The notes: a model not told the origin generated them from the letters alone. A stretch of DNA of 8,130 nt from a virus (IMGVR_UViG_2654587509_000003:1-8130); one strand, 5' to 3'. Shown: positions 1,408 to 7,810, numbered from the stretch's first letter. Numbers and translations are program-made.

Positions 1408-1901
1408 TGCTGCCCCCACAAACAGACTTCACGCTCAATATCACGACGGGTCATCAGCCCTTTCCATTGCTTACCGCCAGCGTATGTCCAGCGACGTAGC
1501 TGGTCACATGCGCCTTTGATATCACCCTGGTTTATTTTGCGAAGAAGCGTCGATGTTCTGAAATTACCAGCGCCCACGTTGTAAACGAACGAGTAAAGAG
1601 CGCCGCGCGTTGTTTCCGGTATATCGACTTTGATGTACGGGTTAATTTGTCTGGCGACCGTGGCAAGGTCTTTATTCAGGAGGGCTTTGCATTCTGCTTC
1701 GGTATACGTTTTACCGGGAATGATGTCTTTTCCGGTGTGTCCGTGACATACAGTCCATACGCCAACGATATCTTCGTATGGTATGTAGCTGACACCTTCC
1801 AGGCCATCGTCACCACTCGGACCAGTGATGAGCACAGACGCTATGGCAACAGCCCCACCACCAATAGCAGCAGCAACAGCCTTGCGTAATGATGGCGACA
1901 T
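1404..1901 (-). CDS. R: SAR endolysin (phage lysozyme, R21 / RrrD-like)
   Basis: 165 aa. N-terminal Gly/Ala-rich weakly hydrophobic signal-anchor-release segment ([20 protein letters not shown]), then a lysozyme core with E...D...T spacing ([24 protein letters not shown]). Near-identical to the DLP12/P21-type lysozyme as I recall it. AGGTG Shine-Dalgarno; start overlaps the holin stop (TAATG). Confidence 0.9.
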
Positions 1902-2116
1902 TATTCACCTCTCGCAGCCTTACGCTTATCTTCTTTAATCTTGAAATAAAGGTTTGTCAGATACGTCAGCAAGCCAAACACCAGGCTACCCAATACGCCT
2001 ATTGCCACCCACTGGGATGGGGAGACTTTGTCCAGCAACTGCAGTAGCCAGTATCCCGTCCCCACCGCTGACGTGGTGTATGACACACCTGTTGTGATTT
2101 TTTCCATCTGGTACAT
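1901..2116 (-). CDS. S: Class II pinholin (S21-like) with dual-start motif
   Basis: 71 aa, [71 protein letters not shown]. Two TM segments and a charged C-terminus. Met1-Tyr-Gln-Met4 gives the antiholin/holin dual start typical of S21. The track's start at 2161 is an unsupported N-terminal extension. Confidence 0.85.
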
Positions 2117-2295
2117 ACCCCGTCTCCCGTTATCCGGAAGCTGACAACAATAAAAAGCCACCAGTTAATTCCTGATGGCCCTGATGCATAAACGTCATAA
2201 TACCTGACTGTTATGATTGACAATAATGATAATGTTTATATAGAAAGGTCCCCGATGTGTGTTACATATCATTTCTCCACGGGGAATATCCCCAC

Positions 2296-2346
2296 GCCAG
2301 CGCAGACTCTTTTACCCGTTCTCTTCTGCGCTGGCTCTTTTTTATT
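2296..2346 (+). terminator. Plus-strand intrinsic terminator (11-bp GC-rich stem, then TCTTTTTTATT)
   Basis: gccagcgcaga (2296-2306) pairs perfectly with tctgcgctggc (2325-2335) around an 18-nt loop, followed by tcttttttatt. The U-tract is only on the plus strand. A GGGGA-ata-TCCCC hairpin sits just upstream (2281-2293). Confidence 0.45.
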
Positions 2347-2524
2347 ATGCTGCTGCATTTACCTCTGGCACCAGGCTTTCTATCTCAACACAATACGTGG
2401 TACTTCTTGTAACCAATATCATAACGATTAATCGACATAGAATTTCTCCCGTGTACAGGAACAGAGTTAAAAAGCCGGAACCGGAATCAAATCACAGGAT
2501 GACCATCTGCCAGTGGCAGGTCAT

Positions 2525-2551
2525 AAAAAAAAGGCCGCGCCATGCGCAGCC
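2525..2551 (-). terminator. Strong minus-strand intrinsic terminator between the cargo gene and the holin
   Basis: Minus-strand RNA 5'-GGCUGCGC-AUG-GCGCGGCC-UUUUUUUU: 8-bp GC-rich stem with one G.U pair, 3-nt loop, then 8 U (plus-strand A-run 2525-2532). Confidence 0.55.
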
Positions 2552-2981
2552 AGAACTCACAAGGAAAATGATAGAAGGAAATAACATTAGTGATGTACGC
2601 ATGGCGCCTCCCGCTAAGTTCTGCAATGATCAAACAGAACTCGCTACGTGCCCTTAAAACTCGATCATTTAGCCCCTCCAAGGAGGATTCACCATGCGGT
2701 TGGTTTTTTAATAAACAGTAAACAAAAAAGTCAAGAATTATTCATTCTGTTCTTTCATCATCGGCCACAGCAATACCACAATGCCGCAGACCAGAGCGCC
2801 ATCAGTCAGTACCAACATTATCCTGCTGGTGAAATCCATCATCACCATCACTAAAAGCAGGATCACAACAGCAAGCAGACACAGTTTATAAAACAATGTT
2901 CAGAAAACGCATTCAGCATGCCTAAGGTTCTATTCCTACGAATAGCCAACTTGCAACTTAAAATATTATTTATGCAGCCAA

Positions 2982-3740
2982 TTAAATTCTGGTCCTTACA
3001 ATATCAACCTGAAGATTCTTATCTTGTGCTGATTGATAAATGACAAACCTTTTACTACCTGCATTGAAAGAAGTAGACAAAACCAGACAATTATCATAAC
3101 GAGCAAGAACATAATACCAACCATCATTATAATTAATCATTTCATATTCTTTCTTAAACTGCGGTTTGTAATATCCTGTCAGAAATGAAAAAAGCCAGAA
3201 ATATGCCACAAAAGCAATCATCACAATCTCAAAAAAATGTTTTTTTATAAATGGCTTATCATAGAAGCATGATACCGATAAAAATCGCCCATAAGATCTT
3301 ATCGAAATTGTAACCGCCAGCGCAATCGCTGCTGACAGTAGCAAAAGAGGTACCTGAATCTTCTGTCTCAATATAGAAAACTCAATAATTGCCGGCACAA
3401 ACAATAATTCCACAGCAAAATAAAGGCGAAATACATTTAGCTCTTGCATAGAATGTTTTCTTTTCACTGCGAAAAAGAATACAACACCAATACCCCAACC
3501 GATAAGAAATATAGCAATGACGATAACTGCAAAAAATAAACTTCTGGCAACATCATCAACACCTGCACCTACAATCCACCATGGGAAGCCGTAGTAAAAA
3601 GAAGTACCCCATCCATAGAAATAAGCACTCCCCCATCCAAGGCATCCCATGTAGGCAATAAAAAGTGAAGAACTCCTGAGCAGCGCACCATCCTTCATAA
3701 CCACCCCAATACAAGATGATAACATTGGCTTACAACTCAT
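2982..3740 (-). CDS. Hypothetical polytopic membrane protein, AT-rich cargo (moron) gene
   Basis: 252-codon ORF. The likely true start is ATG at 3698 (MKDGALL..., preceded by GGGGTGG); the ATG at 3740 has no Shine-Dalgarno. About 5-6 hydrophobic helices and a hydrophilic C-terminal tail of about 50 aa. Hand-counted GC of sample stretches is about 30-35%, against about 55% in rusA. No family recognised. Confidence 0.7.
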   Translation of the reverse strand: MSCKPMLSSCIGVVMKDGALLRSSSLFIAYMGCLGWGSAYFYGWGTSFYYGFPWWIVGAGVDDVARSLFFAVIVIAIFLIGWGIGVVFFFAVKRKHSMQELNVFRLYFAVELLFVPAIIEFSILRQKIQVPLLLLSAAIALAVTISIRSYGRFLSVSCFYDKPFIKKHFFEIVMIAFVAYFWLFSFLTGYYKPQFKKEYEMINYNDGWYYVLARYDNCLVLSTSFNAGSKRFVIYQSAQDKNLQVDIVRTRI

Positions 3741-3836
3741 AACAAAAGCAATTCAATGCCGTCAAGAGGTTACAGGCTAAAAAACTCTATTACATAGCAG
3801 CCAGCATGTTTACCGTACAAGTACAACTCAGGGCAT

Positions 3837-3860
3837 AAAAAAAACCCACTCGGCAGCGGG
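3837..3860 (-). terminator. Intrinsic terminator about 50 nt downstream of the Q stop (candidate tR')
   Basis: Minus-strand RNA 5'-CCCGCU-GCCG-AGUGGG-UUUUUUUU: 6-bp stem with one G.U pair, tetraloop, then 8 U (plus-strand A-run 3837-3844). Confidence 0.55.
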
Positions 3861-3908
3861 TTTATACATTTTTTACAACATACCAAATTTGCATGAAGTA
3901 TATGGCTT

Positions 3909-4598
3909 TTAATCCAGTTTTGCAATATTTTGCTGTAAAAATGCTGCCTTTTGTTTTGAACGTGTTCTCGTCACAAGCAATAAAGCATCACTATCAAGCT
4001 GTAGAAAAATGTGCTTCATTGCAACCCAGCGTTCAGTAAATGTCTCGGACCAGTTTTTTGTTGTCACTCCCACCAATGATGCCAGTGTCTGGTATTCATA
4101 GGCCTCACGCCCTGCAAGTTCGCTCTTCACATCCTGTGCAGCCAGCCAGATTAACGTCTTCAGGCGATCCAGTGTCTTACCTGCAATTTTTCTGTTACTT
4201 AACAAATCTTTAAACTCGCTCCATGCCCATTGCGTTATGGTGACCTGATGCCCCCATCGAACGCTTTCGCTGTAACACCAAAGCAACCATGCTTTCTGAT
4301 GTTCATCGAGAGACAAAACCGCGCGGCGCCATGAAGAGGTTGAGAATTCAACCGGGCTGACCAAAGCAATGGATGAACCTTTTGCGTACGACTGCTTACC
4401 GGAAGTCGGCGTATTATCCAGCGTAATCATCTTGCCAGTTACCACATCCAGAATGTGCGGCTTCTTTCGTTTGTATGTACCAGTATCAAATTGTGCATGC
4501 TCCTGCCAGGCTTCGAGCTGGCCTTTCGTTGCTCCGTTCAAGTCAGCAGTAGCTGCCATAAGTTGCTCACGAACATACTGTAAATATTGGGTATTCAT
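3909..4598 (-). CDS. Late-gene antitermination protein Q (QuuQ-like)
   Basis: 229 aa from ATG 4598 (MNTQYLQYVREQL...) with AAGGA 8 nt upstream. Sits between the rusA/ylcG block and the lysis genes, the canonical Q position, and resembles the E. coli Qin-prophage Q as I recall it. The track's longer ORF to 4682 overlaps ylcG and is an artefactual extension. Confidence 0.65.
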   Translation of the reverse strand: MNTQYLQYVREQLMAATADLNGATKGQLEAWQEHAQFDTGTYKRKKPHILDVVTGKMITLDNTPTSGKQSYAKGSSIALVSPVEFSTSSWRRAVLSLDEHQKAWLLWCYSESVRWGHQVTITQWAWSEFKDLLSNRKIAGKTLDRLKTLIWLAAQDVKSELAGREAYEYQTLASLVGVTTKNWSETFTERWVAMKHIFLQLDSDALLLVTRTRSKQKAAFLQQNIAKLD

Positions 4599-4612
4599 GC
4601 AGTAAATCCTTT

Positions 4613-4735
4613 CTATATTTTGGCATAATTCTTCAACATTCGGTAATCGTTCAAAACCGAATCGGGGAAACGACATAAGCACAGGAGCCCCCAGCGACAG
4701 CGAAGGAGTTCTGATATATAAGACTCAAACATCAT
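4613..4735 (-). CDS. ylcG: Small YlcG-like protein (40 aa)
   Basis: Translated by hand; not in the ORF track. [43 protein letters not shown] overlaps the rusA stop (ATGA). Resembles DLP12 YlcG in position and motif as recalled. Confidence 0.5.
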
Positions 4736-5094
4736 TCATCTCCCAGTTCAGTGATGGTCAGTTCCAGCTTCCCACCTTTGGTAACAGGCATCTTCACAAC
4801 GCGGTAATCAACGACCAGCTCATCATCCAGCCAGAAACCTGCTTTAGTGAGTGCGTCAAAAGCGGCTTTTTGCAGATTATCCTGGTCACGGCGACGGCGA
4901 TCCGGCATGTGGCACTCAATGCGGATTTTCACAGGCATAGCCAGACCGATATCCAGCATTGAGCCTTTAATGATTCGGGCGACGTTATCACGGTATGCCT
5001 GCCCTTCTGCGCTGATGTGCGTGCGCCCGCGATTATGCCTGTAGTAGCGGTTATTGCTCGGCGGCCAGGGTAGTGTGATGTGGTAAGTATTCAC
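4732..5094 (-). CDS. rusA: RusA Holliday-junction resolvase
   Basis: [43 protein letters not shown]...[31 protein letters not shown] is near-identical to E. coli RusA as recalled. GTG start at 5094 overlaps the ybcO stop (GTGA). The track's start at 5157 is an extension. Confidence 0.9.
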
Positions 5095-5381
5095 GCCTTG
5101 ATTACCCCCTCTTTCAGCCAGATAACCTGCGTTCTCGCCATACCTTCCAGCGAGCATTCTTTTGCGTACTCAGCATCGACAAAATGCGTGCGGCGGTCGA
5201 TTTCGTCGTGACAGGCAGAACAGGCAATGGTGGCAATAAGGTCTGGCGGTTTAATACCGGTACCGCACAATCCAGTCAGCCGGATATGTGCCAGTACAGA
5301 CGTTTCAGGGTTGCCATTACATACGCCAGGGATTCTTACCTGGCATTCCCGACCACGCGCTGCTTTTCTCAAATCAGCCAT
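5091..5381 (-). CDS. ybcO: YbcO-like DUF1364 protein (putative Zn-binding nuclease)
   Basis: [42 protein letters not shown]... with Cys/His clusters. Start ATG 5381 is preceded by AGGAGGA embedded in the ninE 3' end. The track's start at 5420 is an extension. Confidence 0.8.
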
Positions 5382-5544
5382 GACTCCTCCTTGCTGCCAG
5401 TCGCAACCATTTTTTATCAACCAGGCTGGCGGTATATCCGAGCAGTGTTGGTATTTCGGAAGGCTTCAGCTCAGGTTTACGCTTACGACGATTTGGTACT
5501 CTGTAAATGTGCCCGTTCATGACACGAATAAGCGGTGTAGCCAT
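5374..5544 (-). CDS. ninE: NinE (56 aa)
   Basis: Translated by hand; below the ORF track's length cut-off. [59 protein letters not shown] overlaps the ybcN stop (TAATG) and the stop overlaps the ybcO start. Confidence 0.8.
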   Translation of the reverse strand: MATPLIRVMNGHIYRVPNRRKRKPELKPSEIPTLLGYTASLVDKKWLRLAARRSHG

Positions 5545-5999
5545 TACGCCTCCTGCTTGTCGCGCAGCAGCTGGAACTCGCAGCTCGGCGGAATAGTCAG
5601 GTGGCAGCCAATATTCATCGCCCAGGCTTCAACCTTACACAGGAAGACATACATCTCTCCGGTATCAAGATCGGAGGTATGGCGTAACGACTGGATAGTG
5701 GTGATATCACCGGTTACGACATCAACCAGGTCTTTGGTTTCATAACCGAGATATGTGTGTTTGAGAGCATCTTTTACCCAAGCTGGAGTGGCGAACGTTT
5801 TACCCCTGCTGATGAGGTATTCACTGATTTCGCTGTACCACATGTGGCTGAGTGCATTCTGGGAAAGACTGCGTCTCTCGCGCCACGGTTTAAGCACCAT
5901 GCGAAAGCATTTGCCTTCCTCCAGATAAGGCTGGATCTGCTGACCGATAGCAGTGAAGTTACCACGATGCAATTTGATGCCGTCTTGTGGGAGGTTCAC
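5544..5999 (-). CDS. ybcN: NinB-family recombination protein (YbcN-like)
   Basis: 151 aa. The [23 protein letters not shown] core resembles the lambda NinB / DLP12 YbcN family. GTG start at 5999 with GGAGG 7 nt upstream. Confidence 0.85.
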
Positions 6000-6193: not shown

Positions 6194-6703
6194 TTAGTCT
6201 GCCAAGTCTTCCTCAGTCGCAACTGGGTAATTCCAAATATCAAAAAAAGCTATAGCCTCCTGCCATTTGCTCCATAAGTTATCAAGTACTTGTGTAGGTT
6301 CCGTACTTTTAAAAACAGAATCAGCCGCATCACCGTTATGAACTTCCTCGTACAGTTCCATTATTAGCAGATTAACAAAGTACTGTTTCAACATTAATGC
6401 CTGATTACCTTCTTTCTGCTGGCTATCCTGCTTGATGATCTCCATCGCCCGTACTAGGCACCTGATGATATCCGCTGCATCATTAACGCTCCATTCAGAT
6501 CCGCGCTTATCTTTAGCTGATGAATTGGCTCTCTCAGCGCAAGCCTTTAAAGACTCATAAAGGTAAACTCTATTTTGTAGCTGCAGCGCTTTTTTTGACG
6601 TGTACCAACTTGCAAGCGCCGATCCCGCTGCGGCTAATGTGCCAAACGCAGAAATGCCTGCTGCTATTGCACTTAAGTCGGCACTGTCAAAGTTCCACAT
6701 CAT
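6194..6703 (-). CDS. Hypothetical membrane-anchored protein (169 aa), orphan
   Basis: ATG 6703 with AAGGTG 8 nt upstream. One N-terminal hydrophobic helix (LSAIAAGISAFGTLAAAGSALASWY), then a charged, probably helical soluble domain. GC about 36-38% by hand count. A terminator lies upstream (6879-6919) with an AT-rich promoter-like stretch between. Confidence 0.7.
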   Translation of the reverse strand: MMWNFDSADLSAIAAGISAFGTLAAAGSALASWYTSKKALQLQNRVYLYESLKACAERANSSAKDKRGSEWSVNDAADIIRCLVRAMEIIKQDSQQKEGNQALMLKQYFVNLLIMELYEEVHNGDAADSVFKSTEPTQVLDNLWSKWQEAIAFFDIWNYPVATEEDLAD

Positions 6704-6938: not shown

Positions 6939-7547
6939 TTATTGCAACAGATTCTGACGGAAATATGGTAACACACGACTCCACTTATCATCCTGCCACG
7001 GTTGGAATTTTACATGCGCCGTTTCTCTGGCAAGGGTTTCTCGCGCCCTGTTGAGTATCCGAGGATATTCTTGTTCGATTGAAGTGAATCTACCTGCTTC
7101 GCGATGCTCTGCGACCTGAAGAAGGGGCGTAACGTTCTGGCAGGCGGTTAACATCGTATCACTTGCTCGCCATAACCAGGAGAGTGTGCAAAGTTCGTTA
7201 TCAGTGAATTGTTTTGTGATTGGGGATTGTTGAACTTCTCGATCGAGAATATCCAGAACCCAGCGGCGGAATTCTTTGGCCACAGGAGTACGAGCAAACA
7301 TGGCGATCAAATGGGCTCCGCGAAGGCTAAATACTCGAGACTCCTGCATTCCACGAGGGGTGGTCACTTTGACCACCCTTGTCATCATATCTGTGAATTC
7401 ATCTGAGTGCCGAGAGTAAATGCGCTGAACTGCTTTATCGTCCGCATATTCCAGTGCTAAACCAACTTCAGTGGCAGTAAGCCAAATTCTGTTATTGTGG
7501 CAAATCGGGGTAAACGTCGTTTTGTGGAATGCTAATTGAGTAGTCAT
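6939..7547 (-). CDS. Bro-N / antirepressor-like DNA-binding domain protein (Roi/Ant-like) with uncharacterised C-terminal domain
   Basis: 202 aa. N-terminal NNRIWLTATEVGLALEYADDKAVQRIY...RVFSLRGAHLIAMFARTPVAKEFRRWVLDIL fits the Bro-N / ORF6N-type pattern as recalled. GAGGTG Shine-Dalgarno before ATG 7547. GC about 55%. Confidence 0.6.
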   Translation of the reverse strand: MTTQLAFHKTTFTPICHNNRIWLTATEVGLALEYADDKAVQRIYSRHSDEFTDMMTRVVKVTTPRGMQESRVFSLRGAHLIAMFARTPVAKEFRRWVLDILDREVQQSPITKQFTDNELCTLSWLWRASDTMLTACQNVTPLLQVAEHREAGRFTSIEQEYPRILNRARETLARETAHVKFQPWQDDKWSRVLPYFRQNLLQ

Positions 7548-7571: not shown

Positions 7572-7604
7572 TCACCACCAACGACGCCAATCGACTGGTG
7601 GTGA
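7572..7604 (-). promoter_or_regulatory. Perfect 9-bp inverted repeat (TCACCACCA-N15-TGGTGGTGA) in the upstream/5' region of the Bro-N-like gene
   Basis: Seen directly. Could be a protein operator or a 5'-UTR hairpin. No U-tract follows, so it is not a terminator. Confidence 0.3.
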
Positions 7605-7703
7605 ACTGTGTAAGGTTGGCGTAACCGGCTACTCAAACCCGGCGCTTCCGAAGAAGCCCTCACACAGCCCACCATAATTTGGGCATAGCCGTGCTTAGCG
7701 CAC

Positions 7704-7724
7704 AAAAAAACCGCTTAACGCGGT
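7704..7724 (-). terminator. Modest intrinsic terminator (tR-like) upstream of the Bro-N-like gene
   Basis: Minus-strand RNA ACCGC-GUUAA-GCGGU followed by 7 U (plus-strand A-run 7704-7710). Confidence 0.4.
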
Positions 7725-7810
7725 ATGCGTTGAGTAGTATCCCGGGACGCCAATCCCGTGTGCCGATTTTGCGGCAACGCACAGAATATAGCGCCGGATA
7801 AATCATGTCG

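What the first reader, a model, noticed from the sequence alone, without database searches (positions are those of the whole stretch)
2982..3740. AT-rich cargo gene for a polytopic membrane protein wedged between Q and the lysis cassette
The Q-to-holin gap is the classic cargo slot of lambdoid phages (Shiga toxin, cold-shock genes and porins sit there in relatives). Here it holds a 238-252 aa protein with about 5-6 TM helices (aromatic/Gly-rich GWGSAYFYGWGTSFYYGFPWWIVGAG; FFAVIVIAIFLIGWGIGVVFFFAV; VPLLLLSAAIALAVTISI; FFEIVMIAFVAYFWLFSFLTGYY) and a hydrophilic tail of about 50 aa. GC is about 30-35%, against about 55% for neighbouring phage genes. It appears to carry its own sigma70-like promoter (TTGACG-N18-TATGAG on the minus strand, 3765..3736) and its own terminator (2525-2551), i.e. 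a self-contained moron. I recognise no family and see no CAAX-protease motifs. It is a candidate superinfection-exclusion, abortive-infection or envelope-modifying protein.
Basis: partly seen in the sequence, partly recalled or inferred. Interest (0 to 1): 0.75.

Follow-up and report, generated by a model that had tools for sequence, protein, structure and literature searches.

The report
TfpB/STM1630-family membrane cargo gene
The gene is real: it is an AT-rich cargo gene for a five-helix inner-membrane protein sitting between the Q antiterminator and the lysis genes of a lambdoid prophage, but it belongs to an already catalogued family of unknown function (Pfam TfpB / "STM1630 family") and is identical to a gene of the classic phage 434, so it is not a new kind of element.

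Summary
A 252-codon ORF lies at 2982-3740 on the minus strand. The real start is almost certainly M15 (position 3698), giving 238 aa. It sits between a Q82-type antiterminator and an S21-type lysis cassette. GC is 36% (GC3 31%) against 45-53% for the neighbours.

The protein is 100% identical to CPT_434_68 of phage 434. RefSeq names it "STM1630 family protein"; it falls in Pfam PF27470 (TfpB) and PHROG 1521. It occurs in 692 of 5,426 complete E. coli genomes.

Relatives occur in very different places: on Shigella invasion plasmids, beside eltAB in ETEC, beside sseJ in Salmonella, beside cdtABC in Glaesserella, in the Moraxella pilin-inversion segment, and alone between housekeeping genes in Pasteurellaceae.

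The gene is under strong purifying selection (dN/dS 0.05-0.09). It survives intact in a decayed prophage remnant that has lost the late promoter. Predicted topology is N-in, five TM helices, with a periplasmic C-terminal beta-domain. No catalytic residues are conserved, and there is no fold or defence-system match.

Best reading: an autonomous, non-enzymatic lysogenic-conversion membrane protein that acts at the periplasmic face of the inner membrane. Its function is still untested. Interest is moderate to low.

The parts
3909..4682 (-). Q antiterminator gene (Q82 type). PGAP and the phage 434 record use a downstream start that gives about 229 aa.
   Evidence: Pfam PF06323, E = 1.6e-90. PHROG 304. 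99% identical to CPT_434_67 of phage 434.
3897..3925 (-). Candidate late promoter pR' (TTGCAA-N17-TATACT), overlapping the end of Q.
   Evidence: Consensus scan. The position ahead of the terminator matches the lambdoid late-operon layout. The assignment is inferred, not shown.
3835..3863 (-). tR'-like intrinsic terminator. It is also the left boundary of the cargo module.
   Evidence: 9-bp stem plus T-run. Annotated as a terminator in phage 434. In loci with a lambda-type Q, homology to the window ends at 3862.
3715..3773 (-). Conserved upstream block. It holds two overlapping sigma70-like candidates: TTGACG-N18-TATGAG (3765..3736) and TTGTTA-N18-TGtTATCAT (3745..3716).
   Evidence: 3/59 and 5/59 differences against synonymous divergence of 0.205 and 0.253 (P about 0.001 each). 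TTGACG is retained in the 59% and 68% paralogues. Function as a promoter is not shown.
2982..3698 (-). TfpB/STM1630-family gene, 238 aa: five TM helices, N-in, with a periplasmic C-terminal beta-domain. The listed ORF extends to 3740.
2738..2896 (-). DUF3927 ('TciB-like') small two-TM protein, 52 aa. It travels with the TfpB gene only in Escherichia prophages.
   Evidence: Pfam PF13064, E = 3.4e-14. PHROG 1470. Always adjacent in the viral loci. Absent next to non-Escherichia family members.
2492..2626 (-). Small ORF with a lipoprotein-like signal (MRTSLMLFPSIIFLVSSGC...). It overlaps the terminator; whether it codes is uncertain.
   Evidence: ORF list. The phage 434 record annotates 'putative membrane protein' CPT_434_70 here. 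It co-travels with the module.
2523..2551 (-). Intrinsic terminator-like hairpin that would end a TfpB-DUF3927 transcript made from the gene's own promoter.
   Evidence: 8-bp stem with 7 GC pairs plus a T-run. Annotated as a terminator in phage 434.
2329..2438 (-). Remnant ends of a NanS-type (SASA) esterase gene, deleted here relative to phage 434. The start codon remnant is at 2438.
   Evidence: Window 2414 aligns to L001 4001, and window 2413-2329 aligns to L001 2160-2246, flanking the 434 esterase CDS at 2175-4025. Sequence shown.
1901..2116 (-). S21-type class II holin: the right-hand boundary of the cargo slot and the start of the lysis cassette (endolysin 1404-1901, Rz 970-1419).
   Evidence: Pfam PF04971, PF00959 and PF03245.

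Best explanation
The gene encodes a 238-aa member of the TfpB/STM1630 family (Pfam PF27470). This is an autonomous, single-gene, horizontally mobile accessory ('moron') protein of the inner membrane. Here it is the first gene behind the late promoter and terminator of a lambdoid prophage.

Shown here:
- Family membership.
- Position in the Q-to-holin slot behind at least three different Q types.
- Atypical composition.
- Strong purifying selection.
- Retention in a decayed prophage remnant that lacks pR'.
- Family members in non-phage contexts.

Predicted from sequence:
- N-in, five-TM, C-out topology.
- A family-invariant aromatic/Gly motif (W..AY.YGW...G..W) and an invariant 'ARSL' at the periplasmic ends of TM1 and TM2, next to a small periplasmic beta-domain.
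- No conserved His, Asp, Glu or Cys.

Inferred mechanism: the protein is not an enzyme and is not needed for lysis. It is made in the lysogen from its own promoter, probably a silenced one that is induced by conditions. On induction it is also made from the Q-dependent late transcript. It acts at the outer face of the inner membrane by binding a conserved envelope component, either a lipid head-group or lipid-linked intermediate or a periplasmic or membrane partner. This changes an envelope property that benefits the host bacterium in animals, which is lysogenic conversion. The identity of the target is unknown.
For: Identity:
- 100% identical to CPT_434_68 of phage 434.
- PGAP name 'STM1630 family protein'.
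- Precomputed PF27470 'TfpB' on all homologues.
- PHROG 1521, E = 2e-154.
- The Moraxella protein inside the pilin inversion segment is a family member.

Autonomy:
- The gene stands alone between housekeeping genes in Avibacterium, Aggregatibacter and Pasteurella.
- The DUF3927 partner is absent outside Escherichia.

Selection for the host:
- dN/dS is 0.054 and 0.087.
- The ORF is intact next to bioA/bioB in a remnant that has lost the Q 3' end, pR' and tR'.

Host-interaction company:
- Beside eltAB, sseJ, cdtABC and an RTX exporter, and a YadA-like adhesin.
- On Shigella pINV between virA and spa40.
- With LpxR and PmrD in a prophage late-region cargo slot.

Expression of a family member independent of phage: Salmonella STM1630 clusters with SPI-2-co-regulated genes (PMC2639726). 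It has its own transcription start and -10 box (bioRxiv 10.1101/689075).

Own promoter here: a conserved upstream block.

Topology and non-enzyme status.
Against: - There is no functional experiment on any family member that shows a clear phenotype. Deleting STM1630 did not change replication in macrophages. Its hypermotility in one screen was not among the phenotypes pursued in the follow-up study.
- The promoter assignment rests on weak consensus matches, no more frequent than in shuffled sequence, plus modest conservation (P about 0.001).
- Adjacency to virulence genes may only reflect co-location of AT-rich, horizontally acquired DNA.
- The constant position directly behind Q in three phage lineages could point to a late-phase phage function instead.
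- The AF2 model has only moderate confidence (pLDDT 77), and no structural analogue was found to support a binding role.
Confidence: 0.5

Rival explanations
1. It is a superinfection-exclusion or abortive-infection protein. A prophage-encoded inner-membrane protein blocks DNA entry of incoming phages, or kills the infected cell.
For: - It is a prophage cargo gene for a small polytopic inner-membrane protein with a periplasm-facing conserved surface.
- It may have its own promoter, which would allow expression in lysogens.
- A distant Klebsiella relative sits at icd beside an AAA_23/SMC-like gene pair, a neighbourhood that looks like a defence island.
Against: - No match to any PADLOC defence model for the protein or for 47 family members.
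- Single copies sit between housekeeping genes in several Pasteurellaceae, on virulence plasmids, and in the Moraxella pilin inversion segment.
- The periplasmic motif is invariant across four bacterial families with different phages. That fits a conserved host ligand better than a variable phage target.
- The Salmonella member is co-regulated with SPI-2.
Confidence: 0.2
2. It is a late-phase phage function, such as a regulator of lysis timing or another membrane-preparing factor, transcribed only as the first gene of the Q-dependent late operon.
For: - It lies immediately downstream of pR'/tR'.
- The same position follows Q82-type, lambda-type and PF06530-type Q genes.
- It is followed by the holin-endolysin-spanin cassette.
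Against: - It is absent from all but 3 of 50,697 phage records.
- It has no similarity to holin or antiholin families.
- It persists under purifying selection in a remnant without a late promoter or lysis genes, and in chromosomal and plasmid sites with no phage genes.
Confidence: 0.1
3. It is an accessory factor for neighbouring secreted virulence proteins or pili, helping toxin, effector or pilin release or assembly. That would explain its repeated adjacency to such loci.
For: Family members lie next to eltAB with STb, sseJ, cdtABC, an RTX exporter, a YadA-like adhesin, the Shigella T3SS region, and inside the Moraxella pilin inversion segment.
Against: - From general knowledge, these neighbours are exported by several unrelated routes, so no single secretion partner is obvious.
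- In this window and in phage 434 there is no toxin gene next to it.
- Many copies have only housekeeping neighbours.
- In M. lacunata the gene is truncated.
- Adjacency can be explained by shared residence in AT-rich mobile DNA.
Confidence: 0.07
4. It is a non-functional or purely selfish ORF carried along by recombination in a mosaic region.
For: No phenotype has been established for any member. Fragments and truncated copies are common in databases.
Against: - dN/dS is 0.05-0.09.
- Architecture and motifs are conserved down to about 20% identity across four bacterial families.
- The ORF is kept intact in 682 complete E. coli genomes.
Confidence: 0.03

Closest known systems
Phage 434 gene CPT_434_68 ('putative membrane protein', UMO75332.1) and E. 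coli WP_001299184.1 ('STM1630 family protein')
   Same: The protein is 100% identical. The same Q82-type Q, terminator, gene and DUF3927 order is present, with 99% DNA identity over window 2414-4749.
   Different: Phage 434 and many EHEC prophages carry a 1.85-kb NanS-type esterase gene between this module and the holin; the window has it deleted. The 434 record starts the CDS at M6 (247 aa), PGAP at M15 (238 aa).
Salmonella Typhimurium STM1630 (SL1344_1560)
   Same: Same family (PF27470), 46% identity, same length and architecture. It is AT-rich, horizontally acquired and of unknown function.
   Different: - It is chromosomal, not in a prophage late region, and lies next to sseJ.
- Its upstream region is not alignable with the one here.
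- It has expression data that the E. coli gene lacks: SPI-2 co-regulation, down-regulation in the ST313 strain D23580 during macrophage infection, and its own -10 box.
Moraxella bovis/lacunata TfpB (ORF inside the type IV pilin inversion segment), the namesake of Pfam PF27470
   Same: Same family by profile (E = 1.6e-61 with alignment A3; tblastn 1e-19). Same N-terminal motif, five hydrophobic helices and C-terminal beta-region.
   Different: - About 23-29% identity.
- It lies between inverted pilin gene segments next to the piv recombinase, so its expression should depend on segment orientation.
- It is truncated in M. lacunata.
- As far as I know from the original 1990-91 descriptions, which were not retrievable here, no function was established either.
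Classic cargo of the lambdoid Q-to-S slot (stx, LpxR, PmrD, NanS-p esterases; Bor/Iss-type lipoproteins elsewhere in the late region)
   Same: Same slot and same logic: accessory genes placed behind the late promoter, often with their own promoter. A 68% paralogue sits with LpxR and PmrD in a Stx-phage-like late region, in the slot that I recall stx occupying in Stx2 phages.
   Different: The protein is unrelated to these, and no activity is known for it. Unlike stx it is an integral membrane protein that would stay in the producing cell.

Membership tests
Pfam PF27470 (TfpB) / PGAP 'STM1630 family protein' | Significant match to the family model or name rule | tested here: met
   The cluster representative P0001 (100% identical) and all 103 homologues carry precomputed PF27470. 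The family name appears. PGAP names the identical 238-aa protein 'STM1630 family protein'. The local Pfam and NCBIfam copies lack the model, so there is no direct hmmscan hit.
Pfam PF27470 (TfpB) / PGAP 'STM1630 family protein' | Homology to the namesake proteins (Moraxella TfpB, Salmonella STM1630) | tested here: met
   P0075, the Salmonella protein next to sseJ, is 46% identical at E = 1e-70. Moraxella P0219, named 'protein tfpB' by JGI, scores E = 1.6e-61 with the family profile. M. bovis L028 gives tblastn 1e-19 and lies between inverted pilin segments.
Pfam PF27470 (TfpB) / PGAP 'STM1630 family protein' | Shared architecture and invariant motif (about 240 aa; five TM helices; W..AY.YGW...G..W, ARSL; C-terminal beta-region with YY.L) | tested here: met
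   Invariant residues A25 Y26 W30 G37 W40 A51 R52 S53 L54 G71 G175 Y196 F218 across 47 sequences. AF2 secondary structure. Family-wide charge distribution.
PHROG 1521 (phage protein family, unknown function) | Profile match over the full length | tested here: met
   E = 2.1e-154, profile positions 1-222 of 222.
Moron (accessory transcription unit inserted between conserved phage genes) | Present or absent between genes that are adjacent in related phages | tested here: met
   The gene is in 3 of 50,697 phage records, while a query that also included the holin start matched 241 records. The module boundary lies at tR' behind different Q types.
Moron (accessory transcription unit inserted between conserved phage genes) | Nucleotide composition different from the flanking phage genes | tested here: met
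   GC 36.4% and GC3 31% against 45-53%.
Moron (accessory transcription unit inserted between conserved phage genes) | Own promoter and terminator | tested here: inconclusive
   Terminator-like hairpin at 2551..2533, but it lies after a second gene. The promoter candidates are weak and no more frequent than in shuffles. However, the block is conserved (P about 0.001) and TTGACG is kept in two paralogue lineages.
Moron (accessory transcription unit inserted between conserved phage genes) | Expressed from the repressed prophage | not testable with these tools
   This needs RNA or protein data from a lysogen. The only indirect support is the intact, selected copy in a remnant without pR'.
Known anti-phage defence or exclusion families (PADLOC-DB) | Sequence match to a defence-system component | tested here: not met
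   No hit for the protein. Among 47 family members there were only chance-level hits (best E = 0.014).
Holin / antiholin families | Match to a holin family, or a small 1-4 TM protein with a charged C-terminus encoded in the lysis cassette | tested here: not met
   No Pfam or PHROG holin hit, whereas the true holin at 1901-2116 hits PF04971. The protein has 238 aa, five TM helices and a folded beta-domain.
CAAX protease / Abi (PF02517) membrane proteases | Pfam match and conserved EE...H catalytic motifs | tested here: not met
   No Pfam hit at E <= 0.1. No conserved Glu or His anywhere in the family alignment.

The most novel reading that the evidence does not exclude
The TfpB/STM1630 family could be a so far unrecognised class of host-induced envelope factor. 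It would spread as a single-gene cassette through prophage cargo slots, virulence plasmids and islands of animal-associated Gram-negative bacteria (Enterobacterales, Pasteurellaceae, Neisseriaceae, Moraxella). In those places it repeatedly lies beside toxin, effector, adhesin and pilin genes. It would act through a new five-TM plus periplasmic beta-domain fold that has no solved relative. Alternatively, the same fold could define a new broad-range superinfection-exclusion family.
Probability: 0.25. Interest if true: 0.6.

Novelty: already known. Interest (0 to 1): 0.35.

Why it matters
The gene is common in pathogenic E. coli: 13% of complete genomes, often two copies, including O157, O145, O111 and O121 strains. 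Relatives sit on Shigella invasion plasmids, next to LT in ETEC and next to sseJ in Salmonella. Even so, no member has a known function. If the protein changes an envelope property or blocks phages, it would be a widespread lysogenic-conversion factor of enteric pathogens. It would also finally give a function to the Moraxella tfpB ORF. As it stands, the finding adds no new kind of element. Its value is that it links scattered 'hypothetical' annotations, sets the likely start codon and topology, and narrows the testable hypotheses.

Tried and rejected
Searches that gave nothing useful:
- Local Pfam-A, NCBIfam r20 and PADLOC gave no family for the protein. The local copies do not hold PF27470.
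- Pfam on the most distant architecture-sharing relatives gave nothing.
- The first AF2 run, on a shallow 34-sequence alignment, was unusable (pLDDT 57.8). The second, with 47 diverse sequences, gave pLDDT 77.
- Literature: nothing retrievable on Moraxella tfpB, PF27470 or the phage 434 genome annotation. 'Tci' turned out to be a similarity-based name from the phage P1 annotation, not an experimental result.

Ideas tested and dropped:
- Transferring the experimentally mapped STM1630 promoter to this gene failed, because the upstream regions are not alignable.
- An obligatory TfpB-DUF3927 two-gene system was rejected, because DUF3927 is absent next to all non-Escherichia members.
- An enzyme role was rejected for lack of any conserved His, Asp, Glu or Cys.
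- There are no tRNA genes in the slot.

Full report
**What is in the window.** All genes read on the minus strand and form the late-region junction of a lambdoid prophage:

| Feature | Coordinates |
|---|---|
| Antirepressor-like gene | 6939-7547 |
| PHROG 1779, unknown function | 6194-6703 |
| NinB | 5544-5999 |
| YbcO | 5091-5420 |
| RusA | 4732-5157 |
| Q antiterminator, PF06323 | 3909-4682 |
| Target ORF | 2982-3740 |
| DUF3927 small membrane protein | 2738-2896 |
| S21-type holin | 1901-2116 |
| SAR-type endolysin | 1404-1901 |
| Rz | 970-1419 |
| Rha | 203-820 |

Between Q and the target lie a promoter-like TTGCAA-N17-TATACT (3925..3897) and a strong hairpin with a T-run (3863..3842). 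The phage 434 record annotates that hairpin as a terminator. The target is therefore the first gene behind a pR'/tR'-type late control region.

**Checking the observation.**
- The ORF, its hydrophobic segments and the promoter-like and terminator-like motifs are at the stated coordinates.
- GC is 36.4% (GC3 31%) against 45-53% for neighbouring genes.
- The true start is very probably M15 (position 3698), giving 238 aa. It is the invariant first residue of a family whose members are 236-238 aa. PGAP uses it. In a diverged copy (L014) a 1-nt deletion puts the two upstream ATGs out of frame, while the Shine-Dalgarno-like sequence and this ATG are kept.
- The terminator at 2551..2533 lies after the DUF3927 gene, so a self-contained unit would have at least two cistrons.
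An overlapping TTGTTA-N18-TGtTATCAT was listed. Promoter-like sites in the region are no more frequent than in shuffled sequence.

**Identity.**
- Window 2414-4749 is 99% identical to phage 434 (OL657226). There the gene is CPT_434_68, 'putative membrane protein', followed by 'TciB' (DUF3927).
- The protein hits PHROG 1521 at E = 2e-154.
- All homologues carry the precomputed Pfam family PF27470, named TfpB.
- A recent PGAP annotation calls the identical 238-aa protein 'STM1630 family protein'.
- The gene is present in 692 of 5,426 complete E. coli genomes, with a median of two copies, nearly all at 99% identity or more.
- It is present in only 3 of 50,697 phage records: 434 and 2B8, the latter held as two records.
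- The 'Tci' label of the neighbour is a similarity-based name from the phage P1 annotation.

**Extent of the family.** A profile search of 1.84 billion representative proteins found only 72 hits at E <= 0.001. Members come from Enterobacterales, Pasteurellaceae, Neisseriaceae and Moraxella. In M. bovis the member lies between two inverted pilin gene segments. In M. lacunata it lies next to the piv-like recombinase and is truncated. This is the tfpB ORF of the pilin inversion region, which explains the Pfam name.

**Genomic contexts.**

*Escherichia prophages.* The gene always travels with DUF3927 and a small ORF. A NanS-type esterase may or may not follow, and then the lysis cassette.
- In loci with a lambda-type Q, nucleotide homology to the window stops at 3862, inside tR'.
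- In Yersinia the gene follows a PF06530-type Q.
- A 68% paralogue sits in a Stx-phage-like late region in the order Q, methylase, TfpB, LpxR (with or without PmrD), NanS, DUF1378, DUF826, S, R.

*Outside phages.*

| Host or replicon | Neighbours |
|---|---|
| Salmonella | sseJ |
| ETEC plasmids | eltAB and STb, divergent orientation |
| Shigella pINV | between virA and spa40 |
| Glaesserella parasuis | cdtABC |
| Mesocricetibacter | HlyB/HlyD-type exporter |
| Mannheimia haemolytica | YadA-like adhesin |
| Avibacterium, Aggregatibacter, Pasteurella | housekeeping genes only |

DUF3927 is absent next to all non-Escherichia members. TfpB is therefore a functionally autonomous single-gene unit.

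**Selection.** Against diverged Escherichia copies, dN/dS is 0.054 (L013) and 0.087 (L014). L014 is a decayed remnant next to bioA/bioB in which the 3' end of Q, pR' and tR' are deleted, yet the ORF is intact. This argues that the gene is maintained for the host rather than for lytic growth.

The 59 nt from -75 to -17 upstream of the start differ at 3 and 5 positions. Synonymous divergence in the coding sequence is 0.205 and 0.253, so P is about 0.001 in each case. TTGACG is retained in the 59% paralogue on LT plasmids, with the same N18 spacing, and in the 68% paralogue. This is modest support for an own promoter. The Salmonella and Shigella upstream regions are not alignable, so the mapped STM1630 promoter cannot be transferred.

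**Protein features.** With a 47-sequence alignment, AF2 gave pLDDT 77 and pTM 0.62.
- Five long helices: 3-36, 47-79, 89-111, 116-136 and 155-181.
- A five-stranded beta-domain: 187-232.
- Across the family, Lys and Arg concentrate in the N-terminus and in loops 2 and 4 (means 1.3, 3.2 and 3.2). Loops 1 and 3 have almost none (0.09 and 0.5). This gives N-in, C-out, with a periplasmic beta-domain.
- The invariant residues are A25 Y26 W30 G37 W40 A51 R52 S53 L54 G71 G175 Y196 F218. They cluster at the periplasmic ends of TM1 and TM2 and in the beta-domain.
- No His, Asp, Glu or Cys is conserved. An enzyme is therefore unlikely, and a binding or blocking role at the outer face of the inner membrane is the most economical reading.
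- No structural analogue or solved relative was found.
- No defence-system model matches.

**Literature on the Salmonella member.**
- In the ST313 strain D23580 it is down-regulated during macrophage infection (bioRxiv 10.1101/450098), and a follow-up describes two SNPs that disrupt its -10 box.
- Deleting it did not change replication in macrophages (bioRxiv 10.1101/689075).
- A deletion was hypermotile in one screen (PMC4219756). The clean-deletion follow-up did not list it among the phenotypes it pursued (PMC4534456).
- No member has an established function.

**Interpretation.** The gene is a bona fide accessory gene of the Q-to-holin slot and belongs to a known but uncharacterised family.

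I commit to the following reading, with about 0.5 confidence. It is an autonomous, non-enzymatic lysogenic-conversion protein. It is expressed from its own promoter in the lysogen and from the late transcript on induction. It acts on a conserved envelope component at the periplasmic face of the inner membrane.

Rivals:
- Superinfection exclusion or defence (0.2).
- A late-phase phage function (0.1).
- An accessory role for neighbouring secreted virulence factors (0.07).
- A non-functional ORF (0.03, largely refuted by the selection analysis).

**Verdict.** The feature is already known as a sequence and as a family, and its function is open. Interest is moderate to low (0.35).

Noticed in passing
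window 7594-7679 (-) and 7704-7776 (-): Rfam gathering-level hits to C4 antisense RNA (RF01695, 74.8 bits) and the isrK Hfq-binding sRNA (RF01394, 58.7 bits). Both lie directly upstream of the antirepressor-like ORF at 6939-7547. The arrangement looks like a P1/P7-type c4-ant or Gifsy-1 isrK-type antirepressor control module.
   Followed up: no
window 2329-2438 (-): Relative to phage 434, the window has a deletion of about 1.75 kb that removes nearly all of the NanS-type (SASA) sialate esterase gene. Its first 25 nt (ATG at 2438) and last roughly 70 nt remain. In the viral loci the esterase is variably present in this slot, and L045 has the DUF3927 / small ORF / esterase unit twice.
   Followed up: partly
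window 2492-2626 (-): A small ORF with a lipoprotein-like signal and lipobox (MRTSLMLFPSIIFLVSSG|C) overlaps the terminator hairpin at 2551..2533. The phage 434 record annotates a 62-aa 'putative membrane protein' in the same frame. Whether it codes is unclear.
   Followed up: no
L008-L011, L127 (ETEC); L004, L015, L016 (Salmonella); L019 (Glaesserella); L017 (Mesocricetibacter); L120 (Mannheimia); L126 (Shigella pWR501): Family members repeatedly lie next to toxin, effector or adhesin genes: eltAB with STb, sseJ, cdtABC, an RTX-type HlyB/HlyD exporter, a YadA-like adhesin, and virA/spa40. This could be functional, or it could reflect shared residence in AT-rich mobile DNA. No statistical test was done.
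   Followed up: partly
L123-L125 (E. coli prophages carrying the 68% paralogue): The late-region cargo slot of these Stx-phage-like late regions holds TfpB together with the lipid A deacylase LpxR and, in one genome, PmrD. These are two LPS-related cargo genes in a single slot.
   Followed up: no
L014 3888-9904 (Escherichia sp. MOD1-EC7003): A heavily decayed prophage remnant lies between an EmrE-like gene and bioA/bioB. It keeps an intact TfpB gene although part of Q, pR' and tR' are deleted. This may be an example of domestication.
   Followed up: partly
L012 (contig JAIITD010000172.1): A 3-kb contig binned as a Veillonella MAG carries TfpB (100% identical) and DUF3927 (98% identical). This is almost certainly a mis-binned E. 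coli prophage fragment.
   Followed up: no
window 6194-6703 (-): A 169-aa ORF matches PHROG 1779 (unknown function, E = 1e-102). It has no Pfam, NCBIfam or PADLOC hit and a GC of 44%. It sits between NinB and the antirepressor region and is a second uncharacterised accessory gene.
   Followed up: no
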